Source of the DNA: a virus
Length of the DNA stretch: 64,000 nucleotides
Direction: 5' to 3' (one strand)
Virus record (IMG/VR): IMGVR_UViG_3300025674_000016
Span: 64,001-128,000 of that record
The notes under the pieces were generated by a model. That model searched no databases. It saw nothing but the letters and a program-made list of their open reading frames with translations, and was not told where the DNA came from. Both the position numbers and the translations under genes were made by a program. Shown piece by piece: positions 26,255 through 57,941 of this stretch (position 1 is its first letter; every line of letters starts with the position of its first letter).

Positions 26255-26518
26255 ATGTCAAGAGTAAACGCCGAGGTAAAGGTAAGAAGAGGAGAATCTG
26301 TCGAGAAAGCAATGCGAAAGCTCAAAAAGATCTTAAAGAAAACAGGTTTTCTTGATGAGCTAAGAGAGCGCCGATATTACGAAAAACCTTCTGTTACAAG
26401 AAGAAAAAATAAAGCAAAGCGCCAGAGGCTTATAGATAAACAAAACAAGCTTAGAAAACTTGAGGAAGAAAGATTATATAAGCCGAAGAAAAGGCGAAAC
26501 AAGAGGAGAGATAAATAA
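26255..26518 (+). CDS. rpsU: phage-encoded 30S ribosomal protein bS21
   Basis: VKVRRGESVEKAMRKLKK...ELRERRYYEKPS signature. Confidence 0.9.
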   Translation: MSRVNAEVKVRRGESVEKAMRKLKKILKKTGFLDELRERRYYEKPSVTRRKNKAKRQRLIDKQNKLRKLEEERLYKPKKRRNKRRDK

Positions 26519-28027: not shown

Positions 28028-29767
28028 ATGAGCGTTTTACAAAAGTTAACCGAAGGCATTGTTAATCGTAACATCCAGAAAGAGGGCGAAGCTCTTCTCC
28101 AGAAGTGGGAGCAGACTGGTCTTCTTGAGGGTATGGATAACGAAAATGCCCGTTCAAACATGGCTGTTCTCTTGGAGAACCAGGCCAAAGAGCTTCTCCG
28201 AGAGGCTTCTTCTATGGCGGCTGGTGATGTCGAAGGCTTTGCCAGCGTGGCATTCCCCATCGTCCGCCGAGTCTTTGGTGGTCTTATCGCCAACCAATTG
28301 GTCTCAGTCCAACCTATGAGCTTGCCTGCTGGCTTGATTTTCTTCCTTGACTTTACTTATACCGATAGCCGCGCTGGTCAAACTGCCGGTGAGTCGGTAT
28401 ATGGTGGTAATGTTGTTGGTAAGGGTCTTGTCGATGGTGTGGACCTGTCTCCGACTGGAGATACGCAAGCGGGTGGTTTTTATGACCTTAGCACTGGCTA
28501 TAGTTCTCCAACTGGCTCTGTTTCTGTTACCACAGCAGCACCAGACGGCTCTACTGGTGATTTGCCAACTGTGCTAACTGATGTTGCAGTTAGTGCTCTA
28601 TCGGAAGCACAAAAAAAGGCCCTCCAGTACGACCCGGATATCCTAGCAGATGCAAGCTTGAAAGTCACAGTTCACAAGTCGCCTAACGCTGCTACTTCCG
28701 ATTTCCCAAACTTGAATCTAAATGCCCTGACTGCAATTGAGGCATCTGGTATTGATGGTGTTCTAGTGCGAAGGCTAACTAGAATTGATAAAAACGATAG
28801 CAACAAATTAGTTTTTGTAGTTATTAGGGACGCTGCGACACCAGAGGCGCACGGAGCTATCACCTTTAACTATCCGATGACAGACAAGTATGAAGCTAGT
28901 ACCGCCATTGGTTCTGTTGTTGGTAACGTTCCATTTGGCCTTGAGGGTGCAGATGATGTGTCTGGCGGTGATTTTGACGGTTCAACCCGCGATAGAATCC
29001 CAGAGATTGATATCAAGGTCGATTCTGTCAGCGTGACCGCTGTCACCAAGAAGTTGAAGGCCAAGTGGACCCCTGAGTTGTCTCAGGATCTTAATGCTTT
29101 CCACAACATGGACGCAGAAGTAGAGCTTACATCGATCCTTTCCGAGCAGATTGCTCTTGAAATCGATCAGGAAATCTTGAATGATCTTGTTAAGGATGCT
29201 ACTGCTGGCACATACTATTGGAGCCGTCGCCCCGGTCGCTTTGTTGATCGCGGCACTGGCGATGATATCAGCGGCCTTTCTAACGAATCTCTCTTGGGTG
29301 CAGATTTCACTGGCACAGTCAGTGAATGGTACGAGACCCTTATTGAGACAATCAACGATGTCTCTGCGCAGATCCACCGCAAGACTCTGCGCGGCGGAGC
29401 TAACTTCTTGGTCTGTGGTCCTGAGACCGCAAATGTCCTAGAGTTCACCGCTGGTTTCCGCGCTAGCGTTACCCACGATGCAGATACTGGCCAAGCCGGT
29501 ACTGTTAAGATCGGTGCGATCTCCAAGAAGTTCGACGTTTACGTCGATCCTTACTTCCCAAGAAACGTGGTTCTAGTTGGCCGCAAGGGCTCCAGCTTCC
29601 TTGAAAGTGGCTACGTCTACGCACCTTATGTGCCTCTACAGGTCACGCCGACTATCTTCGGTGTTGAGGACTTTGTGCCTCGTAAGGGCGTTATGACGCG
29701 CTACGCCAAGAAGATGGTGAGGCCCGACATGTACGGCTTGGTTGTTATCAAGGACTTCCTTGGCTGA
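28028..29767 (+). CDS. major capsid protein (T4 gp23-like)
   Basis: VQPMSLPAGLIF, KLKAKWTPELSQDL, EIDQEIL, YAPYVPL, PRKGVMTRYA. Confidence 0.97.
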   Translation: MSVLQKLTEGIVNRNIQKEGEALLQKWEQTGLLEGMDNENARSNMAVLLENQAKELLREASSMAAGDVEGFASVAFPIVRRVFGGLIANQLVSVQPMSLPAGLIFFLDFTYTDSRAGQTAGESVYGGNVVGKGLVDGVDLSPTGDTQAGGFYDLSTGYSSPTGSVSVTTAAPDGSTGDLPTVLTDVAVSALSEAQKKALQYDPDILADASLKVTVHKSPNAATSDFPNLNLNALTAIEASGIDGVLVRRLTRIDKNDSNKLVFVVIRDAATPEAHGAITFNYPMTDKYEASTAIGSVVGNVPFGLEGADDVSGGDFDGSTRDRIPEIDIKVDSVSVTAVTKKLKAKWTPELSQDLNAFHNMDAEVELTSILSEQIALEIDQEILNDLVKDATAGTYYWSRRPGRFVDRGTGDDISGLSNESLLGADFTGTVSEWYETLIETINDVSAQIHRKTLRGGANFLVCGPETANVLEFTAGFRASVTHDADTGQAGTVKIGAISKKFDVYVDPYFPRNVVLVGRKGSSFLESGYVYAPYVPLQVTPTIFGVEDFVPRKGVMTRYAKKMVRPDMYGLVVIKDFLG

Positions 29768-48136: not shown

Positions 48137-48165
48137 TTGACAGGCTGTTTTTGTTCTGTCATACT
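48137..48165 (+). promoter_or_regulatory. sigma70-like promoter for SSB
   Basis: TTGACA-17-CATACT with an extended TG; intergenic. Confidence 0.65.
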
Positions 48166-49034: not shown

Positions 49035-50123
49035 ATGGTTGACATTGAAGCAATGCGCAAATTGCTTAACAAAAAGGCAGGTATGCCCGTTGCGCACAAT
49101 CTTAAACAACAAAACCCAACAGAGGTAAAAGATTGGATTCCAACTGGCTCTCGCTGGTTGGACTCAATTATTTGTCGTGGCAAGTTGGCCGGTATTCCTG
49201 TTGGAAAGGTGGTTGAGATTGCAGGGCTGGAAGCAACTGGCAAGAGCTATATGGCCGCCAAGATCGCAAGCAACGCCCAGCGTCTAGGTCATACTGTAGT
49301 TTATTTTGACTCAGAGTCAGCGATTGACCCAAGCTTTCTTGCAAATGCTGGGTGCGATGTCGAGACCCTTATCTATGTTCAGGCCCAGACTGTTGAGTTT
49401 GTGTTGGAGTCCATTGAGGAGTTCTTGAAGACCGGAGAACAGTTTTTATTTATTTGGGATTCTCTTGCTCTGACGCCTGCTATTTCCGATGTTGAGGGCG
49501 ACTTTAATCCCCTATCATCTATGGCTGTCAAAGCAAGAATCTTGGCAAAGGCAATGTCAAAGATTACGATCCCAATTGCCAATTCTCAATCAACCTTATT
49601 GGTCCTCAACCAGTTAAAGACGAACATCACTAGGAACCCCAACATGGCCCTCGTTGAGCCCTACGTTACTCCTGGTGGCAAGGCGATGGCTTATACTTAC
49701 AGCCTTCGCATCTGGCTAACTGGTCGTAAATCAAAGGCGTCCTATATCAACGACGACAACGGATTCAGAATCGGCTCAGAAGTAAAGGCTACGTTGAAGA
49801 AATCTCGCTTTGGAACGGCAGGAAGGCAAGCAACGTTTAAGATCCTATGGGGCGATGAGGTGAGGATCTTAGACGAAGAAAGTTGGCTGGAGGCTATTAA
49901 AAAAAGCAAGAACATCACGATCAAGGGCTCGTGGTATTACATGAATATGGGCAACGGAGAGGAAATGAAGTTCCAGCCCGGACGTTGGATGGATATGATG
50001 GAGAATCCAGAGTTCAAAGCTCGCGTACTAGAGATCATGGAAGAAGAGGTTATCCTCAACTTCAAGAACCGCGAAGGAGATTCTCAAGGCTTTTATGATA
50101 TTGACGGTGATGAAGATGAATAA
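49035..50123 (+). CDS. recA: RecA/UvsX recombinase
   Basis: GLEATGKS Walker A, YFDSE, IWDS, LNQLK, TPGGKA. Confidence 0.93.
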   Translation: MVDIEAMRKLLNKKAGMPVAHNLKQQNPTEVKDWIPTGSRWLDSIICRGKLAGIPVGKVVEIAGLEATGKSYMAAKIASNAQRLGHTVVYFDSESAIDPSFLANAGCDVETLIYVQAQTVEFVLESIEEFLKTGEQFLFIWDSLALTPAISDVEGDFNPLSSMAVKARILAKAMSKITIPIANSQSTLLVLNQLKTNITRNPNMALVEPYVTPGGKAMAYTYSLRIWLTGRKSKASYINDDNGFRIGSEVKATLKKSRFGTAGRQATFKILWGDEVRILDEESWLEAIKKSKNITIKGSWYYMNMGNGEEMKFQPGRWMDMMENPEFKARVLEIMEEEVILNFKNREGDSQGFYDIDGDEDE

Positions 50124-52044
50124 AAACTTTATCTTCATATTGTTCGCAGTCGCCTTCTTGTCTTGTCAAGAGGGTGGCAGGTCCGTTGAAACCCCCTGTG
50201 AGAAGGGGGATATTATGTTGTGTGATGGTGAGACAGTTGGCAACTGCGAGCCTGGATATCGTGTGTGTTTTGAGAATGTTTTGGACAATCCAGTAACAAC
50301 CTATTGGAGCGAATGTATAGACCGCAAAGACCCCGAAGAAGAACGCTGCAACTATAGTGATGACGATTGTGATGGTGAGATAGATGAGGGTGTTGCAAAC
50401 CTTTGTGGCAAGTGTGGTCTTGAGCCACAAGAACTTTGCAATAAAAATGATGACGATTGCGATGGTGAGATAGATGAAGGTTTCGCTGGGCAAAGAGAGC
50501 TTTGCAATGGTATTGATGAAGACTGTGACGGGGTAATTGATGAGGGTCTAAGCAAGCGTCAAGCTTGCGAGCCACCAAATGTTCAAGCAGGAATAATTTA
50601 TAATGATGACCCCGGCTCAAGGTCTTCTTGTTTAAGGGGCTGGACAGAGTGCAGAGAAGGCAGTTGGACACCTTGTGCAGAGTGGCAAGGACCAACGCCT
50701 GAAATCTGTGATGGCATCGACAACAATTGTAATGGCGACACAGATGAAATTGACGCACTTAGAAGGCCATGTGGATTTTCTAATATAGGGCAGTGCGAAT
50801 TTGGTATTGAGATCTGCTTTGACAACGATATTATCTGTGTTGATAGTGTTGGACCGCAAAATGAAATTTGCGATGGAATCGACAATGACTGCGACTGGTA
50901 TATTGATGAAGAATTAGCTCGTGAGTGTTCAACCATTTGCGGCGAAGGAGTGGAGAGGTGCCAAGAAGGCACTTGGATTGACTGCACTGCCCCACAGCCA
51001 GTTGCTGAAGTTTGTAATGGTGTTGATGATGACTGCGATGGCCTAGTGGATGAAGATATTTTTTGTGAGTGTCAAGCAGGTGCAATGCAGCCTTGTATTG
51101 CAGAGCCTTGTGGCTGGGGCACTCAAGTTTGTTTAGAGGAGGGAGTTTGGGATGTTTGTGTTGGCGGAGTTGTTCAAGCTGAGCTTTGCAATAATCACGA
51201 TGACAATTGCAACCAACAGGTTGATGAGAACCTTTCAAGACCGTGTTATGAAGGGCCTGAGAACACTCAGGGTGTTGGAGTATGCGTTGGAGGCATAGCA
51301 GAGTGCAGAGAGGGGGAGTGGCAAGATTGTGTCGGCCAAGTTGTTCCCAATCAAGAATTATGCGACGGCATCGATAACGACTGTGATGGAAACATTGATA
51401 ACCTTGAAAGATTTTTTGAAAAGGTCGATATGGTCTTCGTTGTTGATGTATCCGGTTCGATGAATAGTTTTATTGATTCTATAGCGACTGGTATCACAAG
51501 ATATGTGAGCAGTATTCGAGGGCAAAATCATAAATTTGGTTTGATTTTGTATGGATCAAACTTCTATACTGATTATGGAGAATCTATTTTATTTTTACAA
51601 CTCTCTGAAATAAGCGATCTCCTGCTTGCTTTGGCTAATATAATTCTTAGTGGACAAGATGAGCCTTCGATTGATGCGATTTTCTTTGCATCCAACCCAT
51701 CGAATGAGTTACAATTGGCCTGGAGATCAGACGCAACTCCAATTATTATTTTGCTTAGCGATGAGGAACCACAAACTAGGCTGTTTTTAACTCAACAAGA
51801 TTTACAGGGCTTAACAAGAACTTGTTTGCTGCCTGGTTGCAATTCGCAAACAAACGATAATTGGACAGACGGAGACCCACTTGAACTTTTTGCTTTTGTT
51901 GAGTCATCATCGATTATCTTTTGGGAAAGTGCAATATTCGCAGAAGGCAACAGAGTATTCAACATTCAGAGATTGCTCTTTGACGACATGCTTGAGGCAG
52001 ATTTAGAACTAATTTTCAGGGAGGTGTGCAGAGAAACAGAATGA
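50116..52044 (+). CDS. Cys/Asp-rich repeat lipoprotein with C-terminal vWA domain
   Basis: Signal peptide with lipobox FLSC; eight ExCxxxDxxCxxxxD repeats; MIDAS DVSGS. Confidence 0.8.
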   Translation: MNKNFIFILFAVAFLSCQEGGRSVETPCEKGDIMLCDGETVGNCEPGYRVCFENVLDNPVTTYWSECIDRKDPEEERCNYSDDDCDGEIDEGVANLCGKCGLEPQELCNKNDDDCDGEIDEGFAGQRELCNGIDEDCDGVIDEGLSKRQACEPPNVQAGIIYNDDPGSRSSCLRGWTECREGSWTPCAEWQGPTPEICDGIDNNCNGDTDEIDALRRPCGFSNIGQCEFGIEICFDNDIICVDSVGPQNEICDGIDNDCDWYIDEELARECSTICGEGVERCQEGTWIDCTAPQPVAEVCNGVDDDCDGLVDEDIFCECQAGAMQPCIAEPCGWGTQVCLEEGVWDVCVGGVVQAELCNNHDDNCNQQVDENLSRPCYEGPENTQGVGVCVGGIAECREGEWQDCVGQVVPNQELCDGIDNDCDGNIDNLERFFEKVDMVFVVDVSGSMNSFIDSIATGITRYVSSIRGQNHKFGLILYGSNFYTDYGESILFLQLSEISDLLLALANIILSGQDEPSIDAIFFASNPSNELQLAWRSDATPIIILLSDEEPQTRLFLTQQDLQGLTRTCLLPGCNSQTNDNWTDGDPLELFAFVESSSIIFWESAIFAEGNRVFNIQRLLFDDMLEADLELIFREVCRETE

Positions 52045-52268
52045 AGAAAAATAAAGAATGGGTCAACAGTCCAGACCACTACAATCAATCTAAAAAAGAG
52101 TTGTGGGATATTTTCCTTGACTTGGGTTGCGCAGAAGGGTATTGTGTTTCAAGTATCTACAAGTATGTCTATAGACACAAAGAAAAGAACGGAGTCCAAG
52201 ACTTAAAGAAAGCGAGAGCATGCTTGGACTTTTTAATCGAACACTATGACGAAATATTTGAGGAGTGA
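52041..52268 (+). CDS. DUF3310 (SaV-like) protein
   Basis: VNSPDHY...KYVYRHKEKNGVQDLKKA. Confidence 0.85.
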   Translation: MKKNKEWVNSPDHYNQSKKELWDIFLDLGCAEGYCVSSIYKYVYRHKEKNGVQDLKKARACLDFLIEHYDEIFEE

Positions 52269-52570
52269 AAATGGTAACACAAAAAGACGTAAAACATTTA
52301 AAGTCTCTTTACAAGTTGCCTAAGCATCAAATCAAAAAACACCCTGAGTTTAAGGCATTTGAGCTGGTTCCGAAGATCCCCAAGCGAGGGACAAATATCG
52401 ACGTTATTCTTATGGAGGAGGACAAAGAAAAAACAATTCGCTTTCTCTTCAGCAAGAACAATGAATCCTTTGTTAGCGTAGACATGAACACTAGCGAGGA
52501 TAAGACCTGGGAAGAGTTTATCGTTGAGAACAAAAGCTTTTTTGATTATCTAAGGAGGACAAAGAAATGA
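52265..52570 (+). CDS. hypothetical protein
   Basis: Coupled ORF in the small-gene array. Confidence 0.55.
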   Translation: MKMVTQKDVKHLKSLYKLPKHQIKKHPEFKAFELVPKIPKRGTNIDVILMEEDKEKTIRFLFSKNNESFVSVDMNTSEDKTWEEFIVENKSFFDYLRRTKK

Positions 52571-52860
52571 ATTACGGAGAGATTAAGCTAGAAACGGATA
52601 GCGTTAGCGCACTAACAGATAGTAGTGGAAACGAACTAGAAGGGTTATATCTTCTCAGGCTCGCCAAGTGGGTCCATCTTCTTGATGAGGACAAGTGGGT
52701 CAAACTTGATGCGCCTCTTGTTGAGGGAGGGGTGGTTAGGGAAGTCGAGCCACACACCGAAGGTGCAATGAGAATTATATTGCATGATACAAGTGAAGAA
52801 TTCTTTAACCCCCACCATCACTGGTTTGTTCCACTTGAGGGAGGACAAAAAAATGAGTGA
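52567..52860 (+). CDS. hypothetical protein
   Basis: AGGAGG RBS, coupled. Confidence 0.6.
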   Translation: MNYGEIKLETDSVSALTDSSGNELEGLYLLRLAKWVHLLDEDKWVKLDAPLVEGGVVREVEPHTEGAMRIILHDTSEEFFNPHHHWFVPLEGGQKNE

Positions 52861-53191
52861 AAAAGAGATTATGATTGGCATTTGGGACTGCGACTTGCCG
52901 CCGGATGAGTTAGGTAGAAGATTTATTGCTATGCCTGACACTTTCTTTAAAGAATATACAGAGGTATATATCGACACAATAAATAAACCATCCATGCTTG
53001 TACATGGCCCCAATGACGATGGATTTAGAAGAAACTATAGGGGAATACGCCAGGTTGGCCCACCCGATAATGGTTTCGATCAGTATTTTCATAGCTTGGG
53101 CTATAAGGAGGGAGATCAGTTCCCGATAACTGTAGAGTGTTGTGACAACCAGTTCTGGCTTGTGAACCCAGGAGAGTTAGGCCGAGAATGA
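52853..53191 (+). CDS. hypothetical protein
   Basis: GGAGG RBS; start MSEKE. Confidence 0.6.
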   Translation: MSEKEIMIGIWDCDLPPDELGRRFIAMPDTFFKEYTEVYIDTINKPSMLVHGPNDDGFRRNYRGIRQVGPPDNGFDQYFHSLGYKEGDQFPITVECCDNQFWLVNPGELGRE

Positions 53192-53207
53192 AGGATTTTT
53201 ACAAAAT

Positions 53208-53429
53208 ATGCGAAATATGAAAGTTAGAGGGGACTTTTGCCCTAGTTGCAAGAAAATAACAGAGTGGCACCCCATTCCTGATTCGCTAGCTTCTTTCTGT
53301 GAGTGCGGCTTTGTTCGGTGCGGATGGGGCAAGAAGGATGAAAGCGGGACAAGAATTTATGATGCGGGCGTCACAATACAAGAGTGGCTGGAGTGGCTAC
53401 ATAAGAGATCTGAGGAGGAAGAGGAATGA
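53208..53429 (+). CDS. small zinc-ribbon protein
   Basis: CPSC...CECG. Confidence 0.55.
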   Translation: MRNMKVRGDFCPSCKKITEWHPIPDSLASFCECGFVRCGWGKKDESGTRIYDAGVTIQEWLEWLHKRSEEEEE

Positions 53430-53752
53430 GCGATGAATTTGCAGATAAGAAAGGGATTCGTTGGAATCCCAAAGAAATGCTCAATGACCTGTGGCAGCGT
53501 CTCGAAACTGCAAAAGCATTTCACAAGGTTGCCGTAGAAGAAAGAGACTATGAAAGAGCCCTCTGTGACCGATACAAAAAAGAACTGTACGAACTTCGCT
53601 CACTTTATGAGGGTGTTCTTTCTCGCATCAACAAGTTGGAAGACGACACAAGAGCAGCAATAGAGTTTAATGAAGATGTGTTGCATGATGATACTGCTAC
53701 CCTGATGATCTTAGAGTTTTGCGAGGACATTACAAAGTTGGTTGGAGAATAA
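53426..53752 (+). CDS. hypothetical coiled-coil protein
   Basis: Coupled ORF. Confidence 0.55.
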   Translation: MSDEFADKKGIRWNPKEMLNDLWQRLETAKAFHKVAVEERDYERALCDRYKKELYELRSLYEGVLSRINKLEDDTRAAIEFNEDVLHDDTATLMILEFCEDITKLVGE

Positions 53753-53753
53753 A

Positions 53754-53993
53754 ATGAGCGCAGACATTGAACTTTTTAGAGACACTCATTATGGCTTAGA
53801 AACTTCTTTATCTATGGAAATAAAGGCGCAAGGCTGGGTTTCTTTATGTATTGAAAACGATCATGTAAAAGCCCCCGGCGATTCTCAAATCTCTGAGGTG
53901 TGGCTAAACTTGCAAGAAGAAGAACATAGAAATGTCGCCAAAAACCTTATCAAACATCTACAACACCAACTAAACATTTGGGATGAGAAATGA
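53754..53993 (+). CDS. hypothetical protein, paralog of 54532-54756
   Basis: Shared EIK..G..SL and LIxHLQHQL. Confidence 0.6.
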   Translation: MSADIELFRDTHYGLETSLSMEIKAQGWVSLCIENDHVKAPGDSQISEVWLNLQEEEHRNVAKNLIKHLQHQLNIWDEK

Positions 53994-54057
53994 GTGAAAA
54001 CAACAACTACACAACAAAGGACAAAGAAATGAGTGAAAACAACAACTACACAACAAA
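53986..54057 (+). repeat. 33-bp direct repeat (39-bp period) duplicating a gene start
   Basis: AGAAATGAGTGAAAACAACAACTACACAACAAA at 53986 and 54025. Confidence 0.9.
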
Positions 54058-54535
54058 AGAAAAATGGGAAAAGACCGGCCTACTTGATTCTCTTTCTGAC
54101 GAGAAAGCAAGCAAAATTGCACATCTATTCGAGAACCAGGCCCGATACCTAATGAGCACTTTTAGTGATCGAGACATTCCTAGCGAGTTTGGATTTTTAA
54201 ATAGATCCTTTGCGATAATTCGGGATGTCTTTGAAGGGGATGACTTGTCTTTTACATTTGAAGCAACCAACCTCCCTGCCTTTATTTACGCAAAAGAAGG
54301 ACAAACTGATGAAGAGGGGGCGGCCATGACAACCACGCCCCATCAGTTCGACACCCAGCCCACGAGTGAAGACGACGCCACTATTGCTGAAATTGTGAGA
54401 AAAGAACTTAATAGTAGGTACGCTGGCAAACATTTGATCTTTGGTGCGCCGCTTGTGGATGTTAACGGTTTTGGCTGTGTCTGCGCGGCTGTTGACGGCG
54501 GCTCAAGATTGGTTTTTGGAGGATATGAGAAATGA
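53990..54535 (+). CDS. truncated major-capsid-protein paralog
   Basis: KWEKTGLLD..LFENQARYL..GF...FAIIRDVF aligns with capsid KWEQTGLLE..LLENQAKEL..GF...FPIVRRVF. Confidence 0.75.
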   Translation: MSENNNYTTKDKEMSENNNYTTKEKWEKTGLLDSLSDEKASKIAHLFENQARYLMSTFSDRDIPSEFGFLNRSFAIIRDVFEGDDLSFTFEATNLPAFIYAKEGQTDEEGAAMTTTPHQFDTQPTSEDDATIAEIVRKELNSRYAGKHLIFGAPLVDVNGFGCVCAAVDGGSRLVFGGYEK

Positions 54536-54756
54536 GTAGTAGCGTCGAAATAAAAGATGATGGTTGTAAATCTCTTTCTCTCGACATAAGAACATCTGGT
54601 GTCGGACTTGAGGTTTGGAGAGAGGACGCCGAAGGGACGGAACTTATTACGATCTGGTTTGGTCTAAGGCGTAAGGAAGACAGAGAAGAATTACAAAAAC
54701 TTATTTTTCATCTCCAACATCAATTGGAGATTCATGAGAGGTTAGGTTGGGAATGA
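54532..54756 (+). CDS. hypothetical protein, paralog of 53754-53993
   Basis: LIFHLQHQL. Confidence 0.6.
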   Translation: MSSSVEIKDDGCKSLSLDIRTSGVGLEVWREDAEGTELITIWFGLRRKEDREELQKLIFHLQHQLEIHERLGWE

Positions 54757-55067
54757 ACGAGGCAAAGAGAATAAAAAAGTTCCTGCGAAACAAAGACAAT
54801 AAAGTTATTGTAAAAATTGTTGAGACAGACCCTTGGGGTGGAGATGTGGTCTTGACCACTACATTGACTTATGATGATCTGGTAAAAGAAACCTTGCTAT
54901 GGGAACAAAAGTTCAAGCAGGACTACGGATGCTTACCGGGAATTGTTATGGATGCCCCCTGGCTTATCTACTTTGTCACAATAGAGAATAAAGAAGGCGA
55001 GGAGCTTTATAAAAAAACTTTCTGGAAGAAGGAAGAAACAAGAGAATTCCTTAATGACGAGGGATGA
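54753..55067 (+). CDS. hypothetical protein
   Basis: Coupled ORF. Confidence 0.55.
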   Translation: MNEAKRIKKFLRNKDNKVIVKIVETDPWGGDVVLTTTLTYDDLVKETLLWEQKFKQDYGCLPGIVMDAPWLIYFVTIENKEGEELYKKTFWKKEETREFLNDEG

Positions 55068-56278: not shown

Positions 56279-57232
56279 ATGAGTAGAATTTTAATTGTAG
56301 ACGCACAAAACATGCTTGTAAGAAATTGGGTCGTTGACCCTAGCCTAGCCCTTAATGGGGCTCCGATTGGAGGACTAAAGGGTTTTCTCAAGAGTTTGCA
56401 AAAAGTCTCCAGAGAGACCAATCCAGATAAGATCGTTATTTGCTGGGATGGAGAGGGAGGGTCAAAAAGGAGAAAAACGCAAAACAAAAATTACAAGAAA
56501 GGTCGAAAACCAATAAGATTGAATAGATCTTCTAATAATTTAAATCAAGCAGAGATAGACCAGAACAGAATCTGGCAGCAGTTGCGGCTTGTTGAGTACC
56601 TTAATGAGATGCCAGTATATCAACTTATGCTAAAGCATGTTGAGGCTGACGACTTGATTGCCTTTACAACACAATTTCAAGACTTTAAAGATGATCAAAA
56701 AGTTATTGTGTCCTCGGACAAAGACTTCTTTCAACTTTGCAACAAAAACACCATCTTGATAAGACCAATTCAAAAGGTCATCTTAAATGAAAGCAAGATA
56801 GTTGAGGAATACAACATCCACCCAAACAACTTTGCTCTTGCTCGTGCTATTTGCGGCGACAAATCAGATAACATTGAGGGCATCCAGGGTGCGGGCTTGC
56901 CAACGGTTGCAAAGCGTTTTCCTTTTTTGAAAGAAGAGAAGTCTTATACCGTGTCTGATATCGTGAATCACTGCGAAGAACAAGAAAAAAAGCTTGTTGT
57001 CCATGAAAGAATCCTCAAGGGCAAGGATAAAGTGCTTGACAACTATAAGCTTATGCAACTATACTCTCCAACAATGTCGCCACAGGGCGCAGGACTTCTC
57101 AGAGAAGAGTTAAGAAATAAAAAGTTAATTTTCAACAAAACCAAACTCACAACAATGATGTTTAAGGATGGAATCGGTGAATACAACTGGACAGATCTCT
57201 GGAATTGCTACAACAACATCGTCTGGGGCTGA
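56279..57232 (+). CDS. 5'-3' exonuclease / flap endonuclease (T4 RNase H, PolI N-domain-like)
   Basis: LIVDAQN, CWDG, YKKGR, EADD, SSDKDF, GDKSDNIEGI. Confidence 0.92.
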   Translation: MSRILIVDAQNMLVRNWVVDPSLALNGAPIGGLKGFLKSLQKVSRETNPDKIVICWDGEGGSKRRKTQNKNYKKGRKPIRLNRSSNNLNQAEIDQNRIWQQLRLVEYLNEMPVYQLMLKHVEADDLIAFTTQFQDFKDDQKVIVSSDKDFFQLCNKNTILIRPIQKVILNESKIVEEYNIHPNNFALARAICGDKSDNIEGIQGAGLPTVAKRFPFLKEEKSYTVSDIVNHCEEQEKKLVVHERILKGKDKVLDNYKLMQLYSPTMSPQGAGLLREELRNKKLIFNKTKLTTMMFKDGIGEYNWTDLWNCYNNIVWG

Positions 57233-57233
57233 A

Positions 57234-57941
57234 GTGGAATTGAAAACCTGCTCAAATTGCAAAACAGAAAAGCCCCTAACAGAATTTTCTAAAGATAGAA
57301 GCAAAAAAGACGGCACCAGAAATTATTGCAAGTGCTGCGCAAAAGCCAGAAACAAAGCTTACTACGAGGCCAACCGAGAAAAGGAAAAGGCCAGAAAAAA
57401 AGCTTGGCGCGAGGCCAATCCAGAAAAGATAAAAGCTTGGCGCGAGGCCAACCGAGAAAAGATAAGAGCCAGAGAAAAAGCTTGGCAGGAGGCCAACCGA
57501 GAAAAGGAAAAGGCCAGAAAAAAAGCTTACTACGAGGCCAACCGAGAAAAGGTAAAGGACAGAGTAAAAGCTTACCGCGAGGCCAACCGAGAAAAGGTAA
57601 AGGCATATGGAAAAGCTTACCGCGAGGCCAACCGAGAAAAGCTTAAAGCCAAGCTCAAAGCTCTGCGCAAGACACCTCGTGGCAAATTTTTTAGAGTCAG
57701 GGACTCCGCAAAGCAGAGGGGAATAGAGTTTCTATTGACAGAGGGGCAGGCCGCTGAAATGATAAAAAAGCCCTGCACATATTGTGGAAAGCCGGGACTA
57801 TCAGGGATTGATAGGATCGACTCCAATGGTGTCTATACTATAGAAAACTGCGAGCCATGCTGTTATTCTTGCAACACTCGAAAGGGAACTAAATCAAAAG
57901 AAGTTTTCTTGCAAGAAATAAAGGAAGGAAAATGGAATTGA
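57234..57941 (+). CDS. HNH-type (His-Me finger) endonuclease with zinc ribbon and internal repeats
   Basis: CxxC N-terminus; CTYCG..GIDRIDS..Y..N..CCYSCN..KG; GTG start aligns with the paralog start. Confidence 0.75.
   Translation: MELKTCSNCKTEKPLTEFSKDRSKKDGTRNYCKCCAKARNKAYYEANREKEKARKKAWREANPEKIKAWREANREKIRAREKAWQEANREKEKARKKAYYEANREKVKDRVKAYREANREKVKAYGKAYREANREKLKAKLKALRKTPRGKFFRVRDSAKQRGIEFLLTEGQAAEMIKKPCTYCGKPGLSGIDRIDSNGVYTIENCEPCCYSCNTRKGTKSKEVFLQEIKEGKWN
57353..57645 (+). repeat. seven coding tandem repeats A(W/Y)xEANxEK, mostly 45 bp
   Basis: Repeated AAAGCTT...GAGGCCAACCGAGAAAAG core. Confidence 0.9.

What the first reader, a model, noticed from the sequence alone, without database searches (positions are those of the whole stretch)
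53983..54537. Miniature major-capsid paralog in the accessory region (possible decoy or assembly modulator)
Seen: this 181-aa ORF aligns with about residues 25-105 of the phage's own capsid protein (KWE.TGLL, ENQA..L, GF...F.I.R.VF, LPA) but lacks most of the HK97 fold. It lies 25 kb from the head module, has no late motif, and is bounded by a 13-bp direct repeat ATGAGAAATGAGT (53983, 54525). Known: several defence systems sense capsid proteins (CapRel SJ46, Lit). Inference: an early-expressed capsid fragment could titrate a capsid sensor, interfere with competing phages or satellites, or tune head assembly.
Basis: partly seen in the sequence, partly recalled or inferred. Interest (0 to 1): 0.75.

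Follow-up and report, generated by a model that had tools for sequence, protein, structure and literature searches.

The report
Miniature free-standing capsid-protein copy
An uncultured T4-like aquatic phage carries, among its replication and accessory genes, a small, conserved but fast-evolving gene that encodes a stripped-down copy of its capsid protein. It belongs to an undescribed family of about 30 sequence clusters and most likely acts as a soluble mimic of unassembled capsid protein, although its partner is unknown.

Summary
ORF 53990-54535 (181 aa, or 168 aa from the second ATG) is a true paralog of the phage's gp23-type capsid protein at 28028-29767 (BLASTP E 3e-11; profile-profile probability 99.3%).

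- A second colinear segment matches the capsid P-domain strand and spine helix.
- A confident AlphaFold model (pLDDT 88.9) superposes on a predicted full-length Gp23 over 157 residues (TM 0.63).
- The insertion domain, the long E-loop and most of the A-domain are missing.
- The protease-type LxE site present in 41 of 41 related capsid proteins is also missing.

It is not a relic. About 30 clusters of 165-220-aa relatives exist in metagenomes. None was found in Pfam, PHROGs or deposited phage genomes. dN/dS is 0.22, against 0.015-0.10 for its neighbours. In three related phages it is 39-42% identical where the flanking genes are 71-80% identical.

It lies behind sigma-70-like promoters with replication genes, or in sugar-gene islands, and never behind the late motif.

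The 13-bp repeat is a stop/start junction at which flanking genes are swapped.

Best reading (about 0.45): a non-polymerising mimic of capsid precursor. Function is untested, and the complex predictor was unavailable. This scan has noted other capsid-fragment genes in other phages.

The parts
53990..54535 (+). Mini-gp23 gene, 181 aa. An alternative start at 54029 gives 168 aa, as in relatives P0001 and L003.
   Evidence: Residues 1-14 are modelled as disordered.
54059..54316 (+). Segment 1 (residues 24-109): homolog of the gp23 propeptide motifs (KWEKTGLL, ENQ helix), the N-arm helix (F.IIR.VF) and the start of the E-loop strand, which corresponds to the Gol region of T4 gp23.
   Evidence: BLASTP E 3e-11; hhalign probability 99.3%; HMMER domain E 1e-19 to 1e-21 against capsid proteins.
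54326..54418 (+). Segment 2 (residues 113-143): homolog of the capsid P-domain strand plus spine helix.
   Evidence: HMMER domain E about 1e-7 against capsid residues about 330-400; T4 gp23 259-305; PDB 6uzc/7vs5 gp23 258-306.
53986..54063 (+). 39-bp tandem duplication (two copies, 95% identical) that repeats the first 13 codons. The second copy is preceded by GGACAAAGAA, the ancestral upstream sequence seen in L003.
53983..53995 (+). 13-bp repeat, copy 1: stop of the 83-aa ORF overlapping the start of the mini gene.
54525..54537 (+). 13-bp repeat, copy 2: stop of the mini gene overlapping the start of the 74-aa ORF.
52572..54018 (+). About 1.45-kb block of five small ORFs that is absent from relative L003. 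It is flanked by the 14-bp direct repeat GGACAAAGAAATGA (52558 and 54019).
   Evidence: An X14 contig also carries the L003-type left junction.
53742..53993 (+). 83-aa ORF, paralog of the 74-aa ORF on the other side of the mini gene.
   Evidence: 35% identity, E 8e-9; no Pfam or PHROG match.
54532..54756 (+). 74-aa ORF, paralog of the 83-aa ORF. It is kept next to the mini gene in an X14 variant and is absent in L003.
28028..29767 (+). Resident gp23-type major capsid protein (579 aa). It is the full-length counterpart and the only other match to the mini protein in the 155.7-kb record.
48137..48165 (+). Sigma-70-like promoter (TTGACA-17-CATACT with a TG) ahead of the ssb-uvsX-...-mini gene run. 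It is the nearest upstream promoter candidate of good quality.
   Evidence: This is a consensus match only.

Best explanation
**What it is (shown).** The gene encodes a free-standing, miniaturised paralog of the T4-type (gp23, HK97-fold) major capsid protein.
- Kept: the propeptide motifs, the N-arm helix, a stub of the E-loop hairpin, the long P-domain strand, the spine helix and a small C-terminal sheet. Together they fold into one compact domain.
- Lost: the roughly 230-residue insertion domain, the long E-loop, nearly all of the A-domain and the maturation-protease site.

It belongs to an old, essentially single-origin family that evolves several times faster than the neighbouring genes and than capsid N-termini. 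It lies with non-late genes.

**How it works (inferred).** It is made before or apart from the late head proteins. It stays soluble because it lacks the surfaces that lock capsid subunits into capsomers. It acts by molecular mimicry: it presents the most invariant face of unassembled capsid precursor (the KWE.TGLL / ENQ helices plus the Gol-equivalent N-arm region) to a factor that normally recognises nascent capsid protein, and occupies that factor without polymerising or being cleaved.

The factor is not identified. Candidates, in my order of likelihood:
1. A host factor or immune sensor that reads short capsid motifs (Lit- or CapRel-like, possibly through EF-Tu).
2. The phage's own scaffold or protease.
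For: **Homology and fold**
- BLASTP E 3e-11; hhalign probability 99.3%.
- two colinear matching segments in more than 70 capsid proteins.
- T4 gp23 6-57 and 258-306.
- AlphaFold model with pLDDT 88.9 and pTM 0.83.
- ESM Atlas best match is a Gp23 cluster, TM 0.63 by the query, 157 residues aligned. The next rows score 0.24-0.35.
- the top rows are dominated by HK97-fold proteins, including T4 gp24 (1yue, Z 4.1, rmsd 4.1, 107 aligned) and encapsulins. These Z scores are low.

**A family under selection**
- about 30 clusters of 165-220-aa relatives with shared motifs.
- dN/dS 0.22.
- 31 of 32 members sit on one side of a 97% branch, apart from capsid proteins. End branches are about 1.2-1.8 against 0.03-0.3 for capsid proteins.

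**Fast evolution**
- omega 0.22 and 91.7% identity, against 0.015-0.096 and 97.5-99.6% for five neighbouring genes at similar dS.
- 39-42% identity where the flanking genes are 71-80% identical.

**Not processed like the capsid protein**
- an LxE motif right after the ENQ helix is present in 41 of 41 capsid proteins, in none of the window's clade, and in about 6 of 31 family members.

**Non-late setting**
- no late motif upstream. Sigma-70-like promoters lie at 48137 and 56219. The neighbours are ssb, UvsX and a 5'-3' exonuclease.
- relatives lie next to exonuclease and ligase genes, ThyX, or inside glycosyltransferase islands. None lies in a head module.

**Precedent that unassembled capsid protein is sensed**
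- PMC9712102 (CapRel).
- bioRxiv 10.64898/2026.01.04.697583 (Avs7, Avs8, Avs10 and Dsr1; it notes that Lit and CapRel read short motifs).
Against: - No binding partner has been shown. The complex predictor was unavailable.
- Expression timing is inferred only from promoter-like motifs and gene neighbours.
- Sensors such as Avs7 grip the A-domain and E-loop (bioRxiv 10.64898/2026.01.04.697583), which this protein lacks. It could therefore only blunt motif-reading sensors.
- Making a Gol-like region early could in principle trigger a Lit-like system rather than block it.
- Fast evolution also fits relaxed constraint or a surface-exposed virion accessory protein.
- The host is unknown, so no cognate defence system can be named.
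Confidence: 0.45

Rival explanations
1. Head-assembly factor of the phage itself. The mini protein binds the scaffold core, protease, portal or capsid subunits through the retained interior-facing elements (propeptide, N-arm, spine helix, P-domain). It would tune nucleation, size or timing of prohead assembly, or be carried as a minor or internal head protein.
For: - The retained parts are those that face the capsid interior. In other HK97-fold phages these contact the scaffold, for example 80alpha 6b0x, which is among the structural matches at Z 3.0.
- The N-terminal motif it keeps is invariant in 41 capsid proteins, so it must serve a conserved phage partner.
- No gp24-like second full-length capsid paralog was found in the 155.7-kb record.
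Against: - It never lies in a head module in the 9 contexts examined (the window).
- There is no late motif upstream.
- The protease-type site is lost.
- It evolves far faster than the capsid protein it would have to fit.
- It is absent from the four cultured T4-like phages tested with the profile, so it is not a core assembly function.
Confidence: 0.22
2. Weapon against co-infecting relatives or satellites. It would be a dominant-negative capsid fragment that caps or misdirects capsomer or scaffold interactions of competing T4-like phages, while the phage's own capsid protein is adapted to tolerate it.
For: - It has the anatomy of a chain terminator: acceptor surfaces are kept and the E-loop and A-domain are lost.
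- It evolves fast and its flanks are exchanged like a cassette.
- It sits in a non-late position.
Against: The retained motif is nearly identical in the phage's own capsid protein, so self-poisoning is hard to avoid. No immunity partner is conserved beside it; the flanking genes differ between relatives.
Confidence: 0.12
3. Adaptor or substrate mimic for virion glycosylation. The mini capsid protein works with neighbouring glycosyltransferases, for example by recruiting or regulating enzymes that modify the capsid protein.
For: - In L087, L095 and L096 the gene lies, tightly packed, between a roughly 637-aa GT2-domain protein and a 241-aa GT2 protein, inside a nucleotide-sugar island.
- In L083 it lies between a GT1 gene and an epimerase gene.
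- An earlier scan note (e1-5750465) also reports capsid-fragment genes in a sugar island.
Against: - The three syntenic contigs are related phages (flanking genes 71-80% identical), so they count as roughly one observation.
- In the window's phage the glycosyltransferase island is about 90 kb away.
- Other members lie beside exonuclease and ligase genes or ThyX.
- Such islands are general hot spots for accessory genes.
Confidence: 0.1
4. Decaying remnant of a capsid-gene duplication with no function.
For: It is a truncated paralog with no family annotation.
Against: - About 30 diverged clusters keep an open frame of the same architecture.
- dN/dS is 0.22.
- The model is a confident compact fold.
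- The gene stays constant while its flanks are exchanged.
Confidence: 0.02

Closest known systems
T4 gp23 major capsid protein (Pfam PF07068, phrog_138; PDB 6uzc, 7vs5, 5vf3)
   Same: Homologous N-terminal propeptide motifs, N-arm (Gol-equivalent region), P-domain strand and spine helix, in the same order. The model superposes on a predicted Gp23 precursor (TM 0.63 over 157 residues).
   Different: It is one third of the length. It has no insertion domain, no long E-loop, almost no A-domain and no LxE maturation site. It is not in the late head module, and it does not reach the Pfam or PHROG thresholds.
T4 gp24 head vertex protein (PDB 1yue), the classical gp23 paralog
   Same: A paralog of the major capsid protein kept beside the full-length gene in the same genome. 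It is the second-best solved-structure match (Z 4.1, rmsd 4.1, 107 residues aligned).
   Different: gp24 is a complete HK97-fold subunit (427 aa) that forms pentons. It is late and is encoded next to gene 23. The mini protein cannot fill a capsomer position.
T4 gene 61.1 product (54 aa, unstudied), a free-standing copy of gp23 residues 57-93
   Same: A small gene among replication genes that copies part of the capsid N-terminus. I confirmed 46% identity to gp23 57-93, E 6e-9.
   Different: It copies a different segment, the cleavage-site region, and is not homologous to this family's profile. It has no folded core.
DSAD1, the phage protein that blocks the tail-tube sensor DSR2 (PMC11087589)
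   Same: A precedent for a phage protein that neutralises a sensor of a virion protein by occupying it.
   Different: DSAD1 is not a copy of the sensed protein. No sensor is known for the present family.
Encapsulins, the smallest known self-assembling HK97-fold proteins (e.g. PDB 9i8e)
   Same: A minimal HK97 core. An encapsulin is the top solved-structure match (Z 4.2, rmsd 4.5, 111 residues aligned).
   Different: Encapsulins keep the full A-domain and E-loop and form cages. The core here is only about 120 residues, plus a propeptide-like helical part.

Membership tests
gp23-type major capsid protein (Pfam PF07068 / phrog_138) | Match to the family model above threshold | tested here: not met
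   The window ORF has no Pfam or PHROG hit at E <= 1. Among 33 family members, 4 hit phrog_138 weakly and 1 hits PF07068 at E 0.005.
gp23-type major capsid protein (Pfam PF07068 / phrog_138) | Homology to the capsid N-terminus and spine-helix region | tested here: met
gp23-type major capsid protein (Pfam PF07068 / phrog_138) | Complete HK97 fold (A-domain, long E-loop, P-domain) able to form capsomers | tested here: not met
   The protein is 181 aa. Against the Gp23 model TM is 0.63 by the query but 0.27 by the target. Capsid residues about 104-330 and most of 400-579 have no counterpart.
gp23-type major capsid protein (Pfam PF07068 / phrog_138) | Prohead-protease site (L/I-x-E) after the ENQ helix | tested here: not met
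   Present in 41 of 41 capsid proteins and absent in the window ORF and its clade. That this motif is the cleavage site is inferred from T4.
gp23-type major capsid protein (Pfam PF07068 / phrog_138) | Encoded in the late head module | tested here: not met
   It lies 24 kb away, among ssb, uvsX and exonuclease genes, with no ACTATTTA motif upstream.
T4 gp24-type vertex protein | Full-length capsid paralog adjacent to the capsid gene | tested here: not met
   Tandem full-length paralogs do exist in other contigs (L031, L038).
T4 Inh (protease inhibitor) and gp68 (prohead core protein) | Sequence similarity | tested here: not met
   hhalign probability 0.2% and 0.5%.
Unnamed mini-gp23 family (defined in this report) | 165-220 aa; KWE.TGLL and ENQ motifs; F-P-x-I-R-R helix; short hairpin; LDaEVE-type spine helix; GK..vF..P strand | tested here: met
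   The profile search returns the window ORF's relatives as full-length matches. The window ORF scores E 6.7e-42 against the family HMM (it is itself in the model).
Anti-defence decoy of a capsid sensor | Binds and blocks a defined host sensor | not testable with these tools
   The host and the sensor are unknown, and the complex predictor was unavailable.

The most novel reading that the evidence does not exclude
T4-like phages of aquatic bacteria carry a dedicated, fast-evolving class of 'capsid mimic' genes. This family would be its best-folded member: the smallest autonomous derivative of the HK97 fold. It would be made early to occupy host immune sensors, or an EF-Tu-linked surveillance, that read the invariant N-terminal motifs of nascent capsid protein. 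That would be a protein decoy of the phage's own molecular pattern.
Probability: 0.2. Interest if true: 0.85.

Novelty: new variant of a known kind. Interest (0 to 1): 0.62.

Why it matters
Capsid proteins are among the main molecular patterns that bacterial immunity senses. No phage-encoded copy of a capsid protein that acts as a decoy has been described in the papers I could search.

This family gives a concrete, well-folded and widespread candidate. It also shows that the HK97 fold can be cut down to about 150 residues and still be predicted to fold, with the propeptide as an integral part. That bears on how gp23-type precursors fold before assembly.

The gene is abundant in aquatic metagenomes: near-identical DNA turned up in runs from 12 studies. 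It is easy to synthesise and test.

If it is instead an assembly factor, it would be a new accessory player in T4-type head morphogenesis.

Tried and rejected

- Two encoding-contig look-ups failed for lack of capacity.

**Structure and feature searches without a useful match**
- Foldseek against PDB: nothing at E <= 0.001.
- Foldseek against BFVD: nothing at E <= 0.001. The weak S-CAM7 176-aa hit was not confirmed, because the family profile finds only the capsid gene in S-CAM7.
- ESM Atlas by features: no usable hit. The Atlas's own model of this protein is poor, pLDDT 0.44.

**Searches for a member in deposited or cultured phages**
- tblastn of the window ORF and of two distant members (P0016, P0010) against 50,697 deposited phage genomes: no match.
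- Profile search of T4, HTVC008M, Mel-JY01 and S-CAM7: only their capsid genes match. No cultured carrier was found.

**Candidate identities rejected**
- T4 Inh and gp68: no similarity.
- T4 gp61.1 resembles gp23 57-93 but not this family.

**Promoter motif**
- The T4 late promoter TATAAATA is not enriched: 4 found against 3.25 expected. The phage's own late-type motif is ACTATTTA.

**RNA evidence**
- Contigs from two RNA libraries of one study cover the gene, for example 54278-54761. Contigs cannot rank genes or show timing, and DNA carry-over is possible, so I do not count this as proof of transcription.
- The X3 joint 53754>54024 has only 29 letters on its shorter side and is not relied on.

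**Other**
- The third hhalign segment (GLATRY against VMTRYA at the capsid C-terminus) is too weak to claim.
- Literature searches for truncated capsid paralogs or capsid decoys found no description of such a family.

Full report
**1. The observation**

The window is bases 64001-128000 of a 155.7-kb IMG/VR virus record that is estimated 86% complete. ORF 53990..54535 (+, 181 aa) matches the window's own major capsid protein. That protein (28028..29767, 579 aa) is a distant T4 gp23 relative: phrog_138 at E 4.9e-70, with 38% identity to Microcystis phage Mel-JY01 as the best match among deposited phages.

- BLASTP gives 36% identity, mini residues 24-109 against capsid residues 25-122, E 3e-11.
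- A profile of the mini family against a profile of 74 capsid proteins gives probability 99.3%, E 9e-21.
- The 13-bp repeat at 53983 and 54525 is exact.
- The gene is 24 kb from the capsid gene.
- The phage's late-type motif ACTATTTA occurs 8 times, all on the + strand and mostly just upstream of structural genes. It is absent upstream of the mini gene.

**2. Anatomy**

The ORF has no Pfam or PHROG match, yet it is more than an N-terminal fragment.

An HMM of the family hits more than 70 full-length capsid proteins in two colinear pieces:
- Profile positions 4-73 against capsid residues about 25-90 (E 1e-19 to 1e-21).
- Profile positions 93-144 against capsid residues about 330-400 (E about 1e-7).

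The second piece is the long P-domain strand plus the spine helix. It corresponds to T4 gp23 258-306.

AlphaFold2 with a 33-sequence alignment gives a confident single-domain model: pLDDT 88.9, pTM 0.83. It has two long N-terminal helices, a short hairpin, the strand-helix unit and a three-stranded C-terminal sheet.

Structure searches:
- Foldseek against PDB finds nothing.
- A search by shape of the ESM Atlas returns a Gp23 cluster as the clear best match: TM 0.63 by the query, 157 residues aligned, with the next rows at 0.24-0.35.
- The Foldseek-independent search of PDB representatives is topped by HK97-fold proteins. These include an encapsulin (Z 4.2), T4 gp24 1yue (Z 4.1, 107 residues) and the lambda, HK97, 80alpha and ICP1 capsid proteins. 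The Z scores are low, but the enrichment is plain.

Missing from the mini protein are the roughly 230-residue insertion at the E-loop tip, most of the A-domain, and the L-x-E motif right after the ENQ helix. That motif is present in 41 of 41 related capsid proteins. It is absent from the window's clade and present in only about 6 of 31 family members. By analogy with T4 it is the prohead-protease site, which is an inference.

The protein is acidic, with pI 4.6.

**3. A family under selection**

- The word-indexed search found relatives of 95% and 37-44% identity.
- The exhaustive profile search found about 30 further clusters of 165-220-aa proteins matching over their whole length. The sources name all of them 'hypothetical' or give no name.
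- On a tree of the shared N-terminal 85 columns, 31 of 32 members lie on one side of a 97% branch, apart from capsid proteins. Their end branches are about ten-fold longer. The family is therefore old and essentially single-origin, not a recent copy of the resident capsid gene. One member, P0027, groups with a capsid protein.
- Against the close relative L003, dN/dS is 0.22 (dS 0.19). Five neighbouring genes show 0.015-0.096 at similar dS.
- In three related phages the flanking glycosyltransferases are 71-80% identical, but the mini proteins at the same position are 39-42% identical.

The gene is thus constrained but evolves much faster than its surroundings.

No member was found in deposited phage genomes by tblastn. 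The profile also found none in T4, HTVC008M, Mel-JY01 or S-CAM7.

**4. Setting**

All genes in the window are on the + strand. The mini gene sits in a run of tightly coupled small genes with this order:
- gp32-like ssb (48223), preceded by a sigma-70-like promoter at 48137
- UvsX (49035)
- a 649-aa MopE/VWA lipoprotein
- a run of small ORFs, which includes the mini gene
- a 5'-3' exonuclease (56279), preceded by a perfect TTGACA-17-TATAAT

Relatives sit in these settings:
- about 3 kb upstream of exonuclease and ligase genes
- after ThyX
- among small ORFs of a 274-kb contig
- inside glycosyltransferase and nucleotide-sugar islands downstream of PhoH

None lies in a head module. The window's own glycosyltransferase island is about 90 kb away.

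RNA-library contigs from one study cover the gene, but they cannot show its level or timing.

**5. The repeats**

- In L003 the mini gene directly follows the 101-aa ORF (window 52265-52570), through the junction ...AGGAGGACAAAGAAATGAGT.
- In the window a 1.45-kb block of five small ORFs is inserted there. It is flanked by the 14-bp repeat GGACAAAGAAATGA (52558 and 54019). The first 13 codons of the mini gene are duplicated at the joint.
- DNA similarity between the window and L003 starts and ends at the borders of the mini gene.
- A contig of run X14 has the L003-type left junction but keeps the window's 74-aa ORF on the right.
- The two ORFs that flank the mini gene in the window are paralogs of each other.

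The '13-bp direct repeat' is therefore the stop/start overlap shared by neighbouring genes; its core AGAAATGAGT occurs 4 times against 0.21 expected. Such junctions evidently serve as microhomology for swapping genes. The mini gene is the constant unit.

**6. Mechanism**

Shown:
- It is a folded, selected, fast-evolving mini-capsid protein.
- It lacks the inter-subunit surfaces and the protease-type site.
- It is encoded with non-late genes.

Inferred:
- It stays soluble.
- It acts as a mimic of unassembled capsid precursor, presenting the invariant N-terminal face and the Gol-equivalent N-arm to whatever recognises nascent capsid protein.

Published work shows that unassembled capsid protein is a major immune trigger. 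CapRel is one example (PMC9712102). Avs7, Avs8, Avs10 and Dsr1 are others, with Lit and CapRel reading short motifs and Avs7 binding the capsid protein together with EF-Tu (bioRxiv 10.64898/2026.01.04.697583).

Because the mini protein lacks the A-domain and the long E-loop, it could not decoy sensors that wrap the whole fold. It could only affect readers of short motifs.

The rivals are an assembly factor that binds scaffold or protease, an inter-phage poison, and a partner of the glycosyltransferases. None is excluded. I could not run the complex prediction.

**7. Comparison and novelty**

It is a gp23 homolog but fails the membership tests for a capsid protein: model threshold, complete fold, cleavage site and late module. 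It is not gp24, Inh or gp68.

T4 gene 61.1 is a thematic cousin. I confirmed that it copies gp23 57-93, but it is not homologous to this family.

Earlier notes of this scan describe other capsid-fragment genes in other uncultured T4-like phages. Those notes are unchecked leads, and I verified only the 61.1 claim.

I found no description of this family in Pfam, PHROGs or the searchable literature. I rate it a new variant of a known kind, namely a miniaturised capsid paralog. The bolder reading is a general class of capsid-mimic genes, at about 0.2 probability.

Noticed in passing
window 26255-26515 (+): A ribosomal protein bS21 homolog (PF01165, E 1.3e-16; phrog_21469) lies inside the head module, between the prohead protease and the scaffold candidate.
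   Followed up: partly
window 50095-52044 (+): A 649-aa predicted lipoprotein has many MopE-type Cys-rich metal-binding repeats (PF11617, E 2.7e-29) and a VWA domain, and lies between uvsX and the small-gene run. One RNA-library contig (X18) joins 50116 to 52046, which points to a variant that lacks the gene.
   Followed up: partly
window 3590, 25013, 26965, 29844, 32484, 35504, 55894 (+): The motif ACTATTTA occurs 8 times, all on the + strand, mostly 20-40 nt upstream of structural genes. It is a candidate late promoter that differs from T4's TATAAATA, which is not enriched.
   Followed up: partly
window 57168-57941 (+): A 257-aa HNH-domain protein has a long run of imperfect 'AYREANREK'-type repeats. 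Contigs of several runs show repeat-number variants here, with joints at 57344-57443.
   Followed up: no
window 52558-52571 and 54019-54032; L003 4620-4640: Stop/start overlap junctions of the type (A/G)AGAAATGA recur at the borders of small genes. They coincide with the breakpoints of gene insertions and replacements between the window, L003 and an X14 contig, which suggests that translational-coupling junctions act as recombination microhomology.
   Followed up: partly
window 53742-53993 and 54532-54756: Two paralogous small ORFs of 83 and 74 aa (35% identity, shared LI.HLQHQL motif) flank the mini gene. Neither matches any family.
   Followed up: partly
L031 5396-7123 and 7192-end; L038 1577-3304 and 3373-end: Some related contigs carry two tandem full-length gp23-like genes, presumably gp23 plus a gp24-like vertex protein. 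The window's 155.7-kb record shows only one.
   Followed up: no
L086 3967-4131 (T4 gene 61.1): T4 gp61.1 (54 aa) is 46% identical to gp23 residues 57-93, the region around the maturation cleavage site (E 6e-9). This confirms an earlier scan note.
   Followed up: yes
L087 7771-9681, L095 4098-6011, L096 1920-3842; G000:C1 about 26.0-27.7 kb: A conserved two-domain glycosyltransferase of about 565-640 aa (unknown N-terminal domain plus GT2) heads a nucleotide-sugar island downstream of PhoH in these phages. The window's genome has a 29%-identical homolog outside the window.
   Followed up: partly
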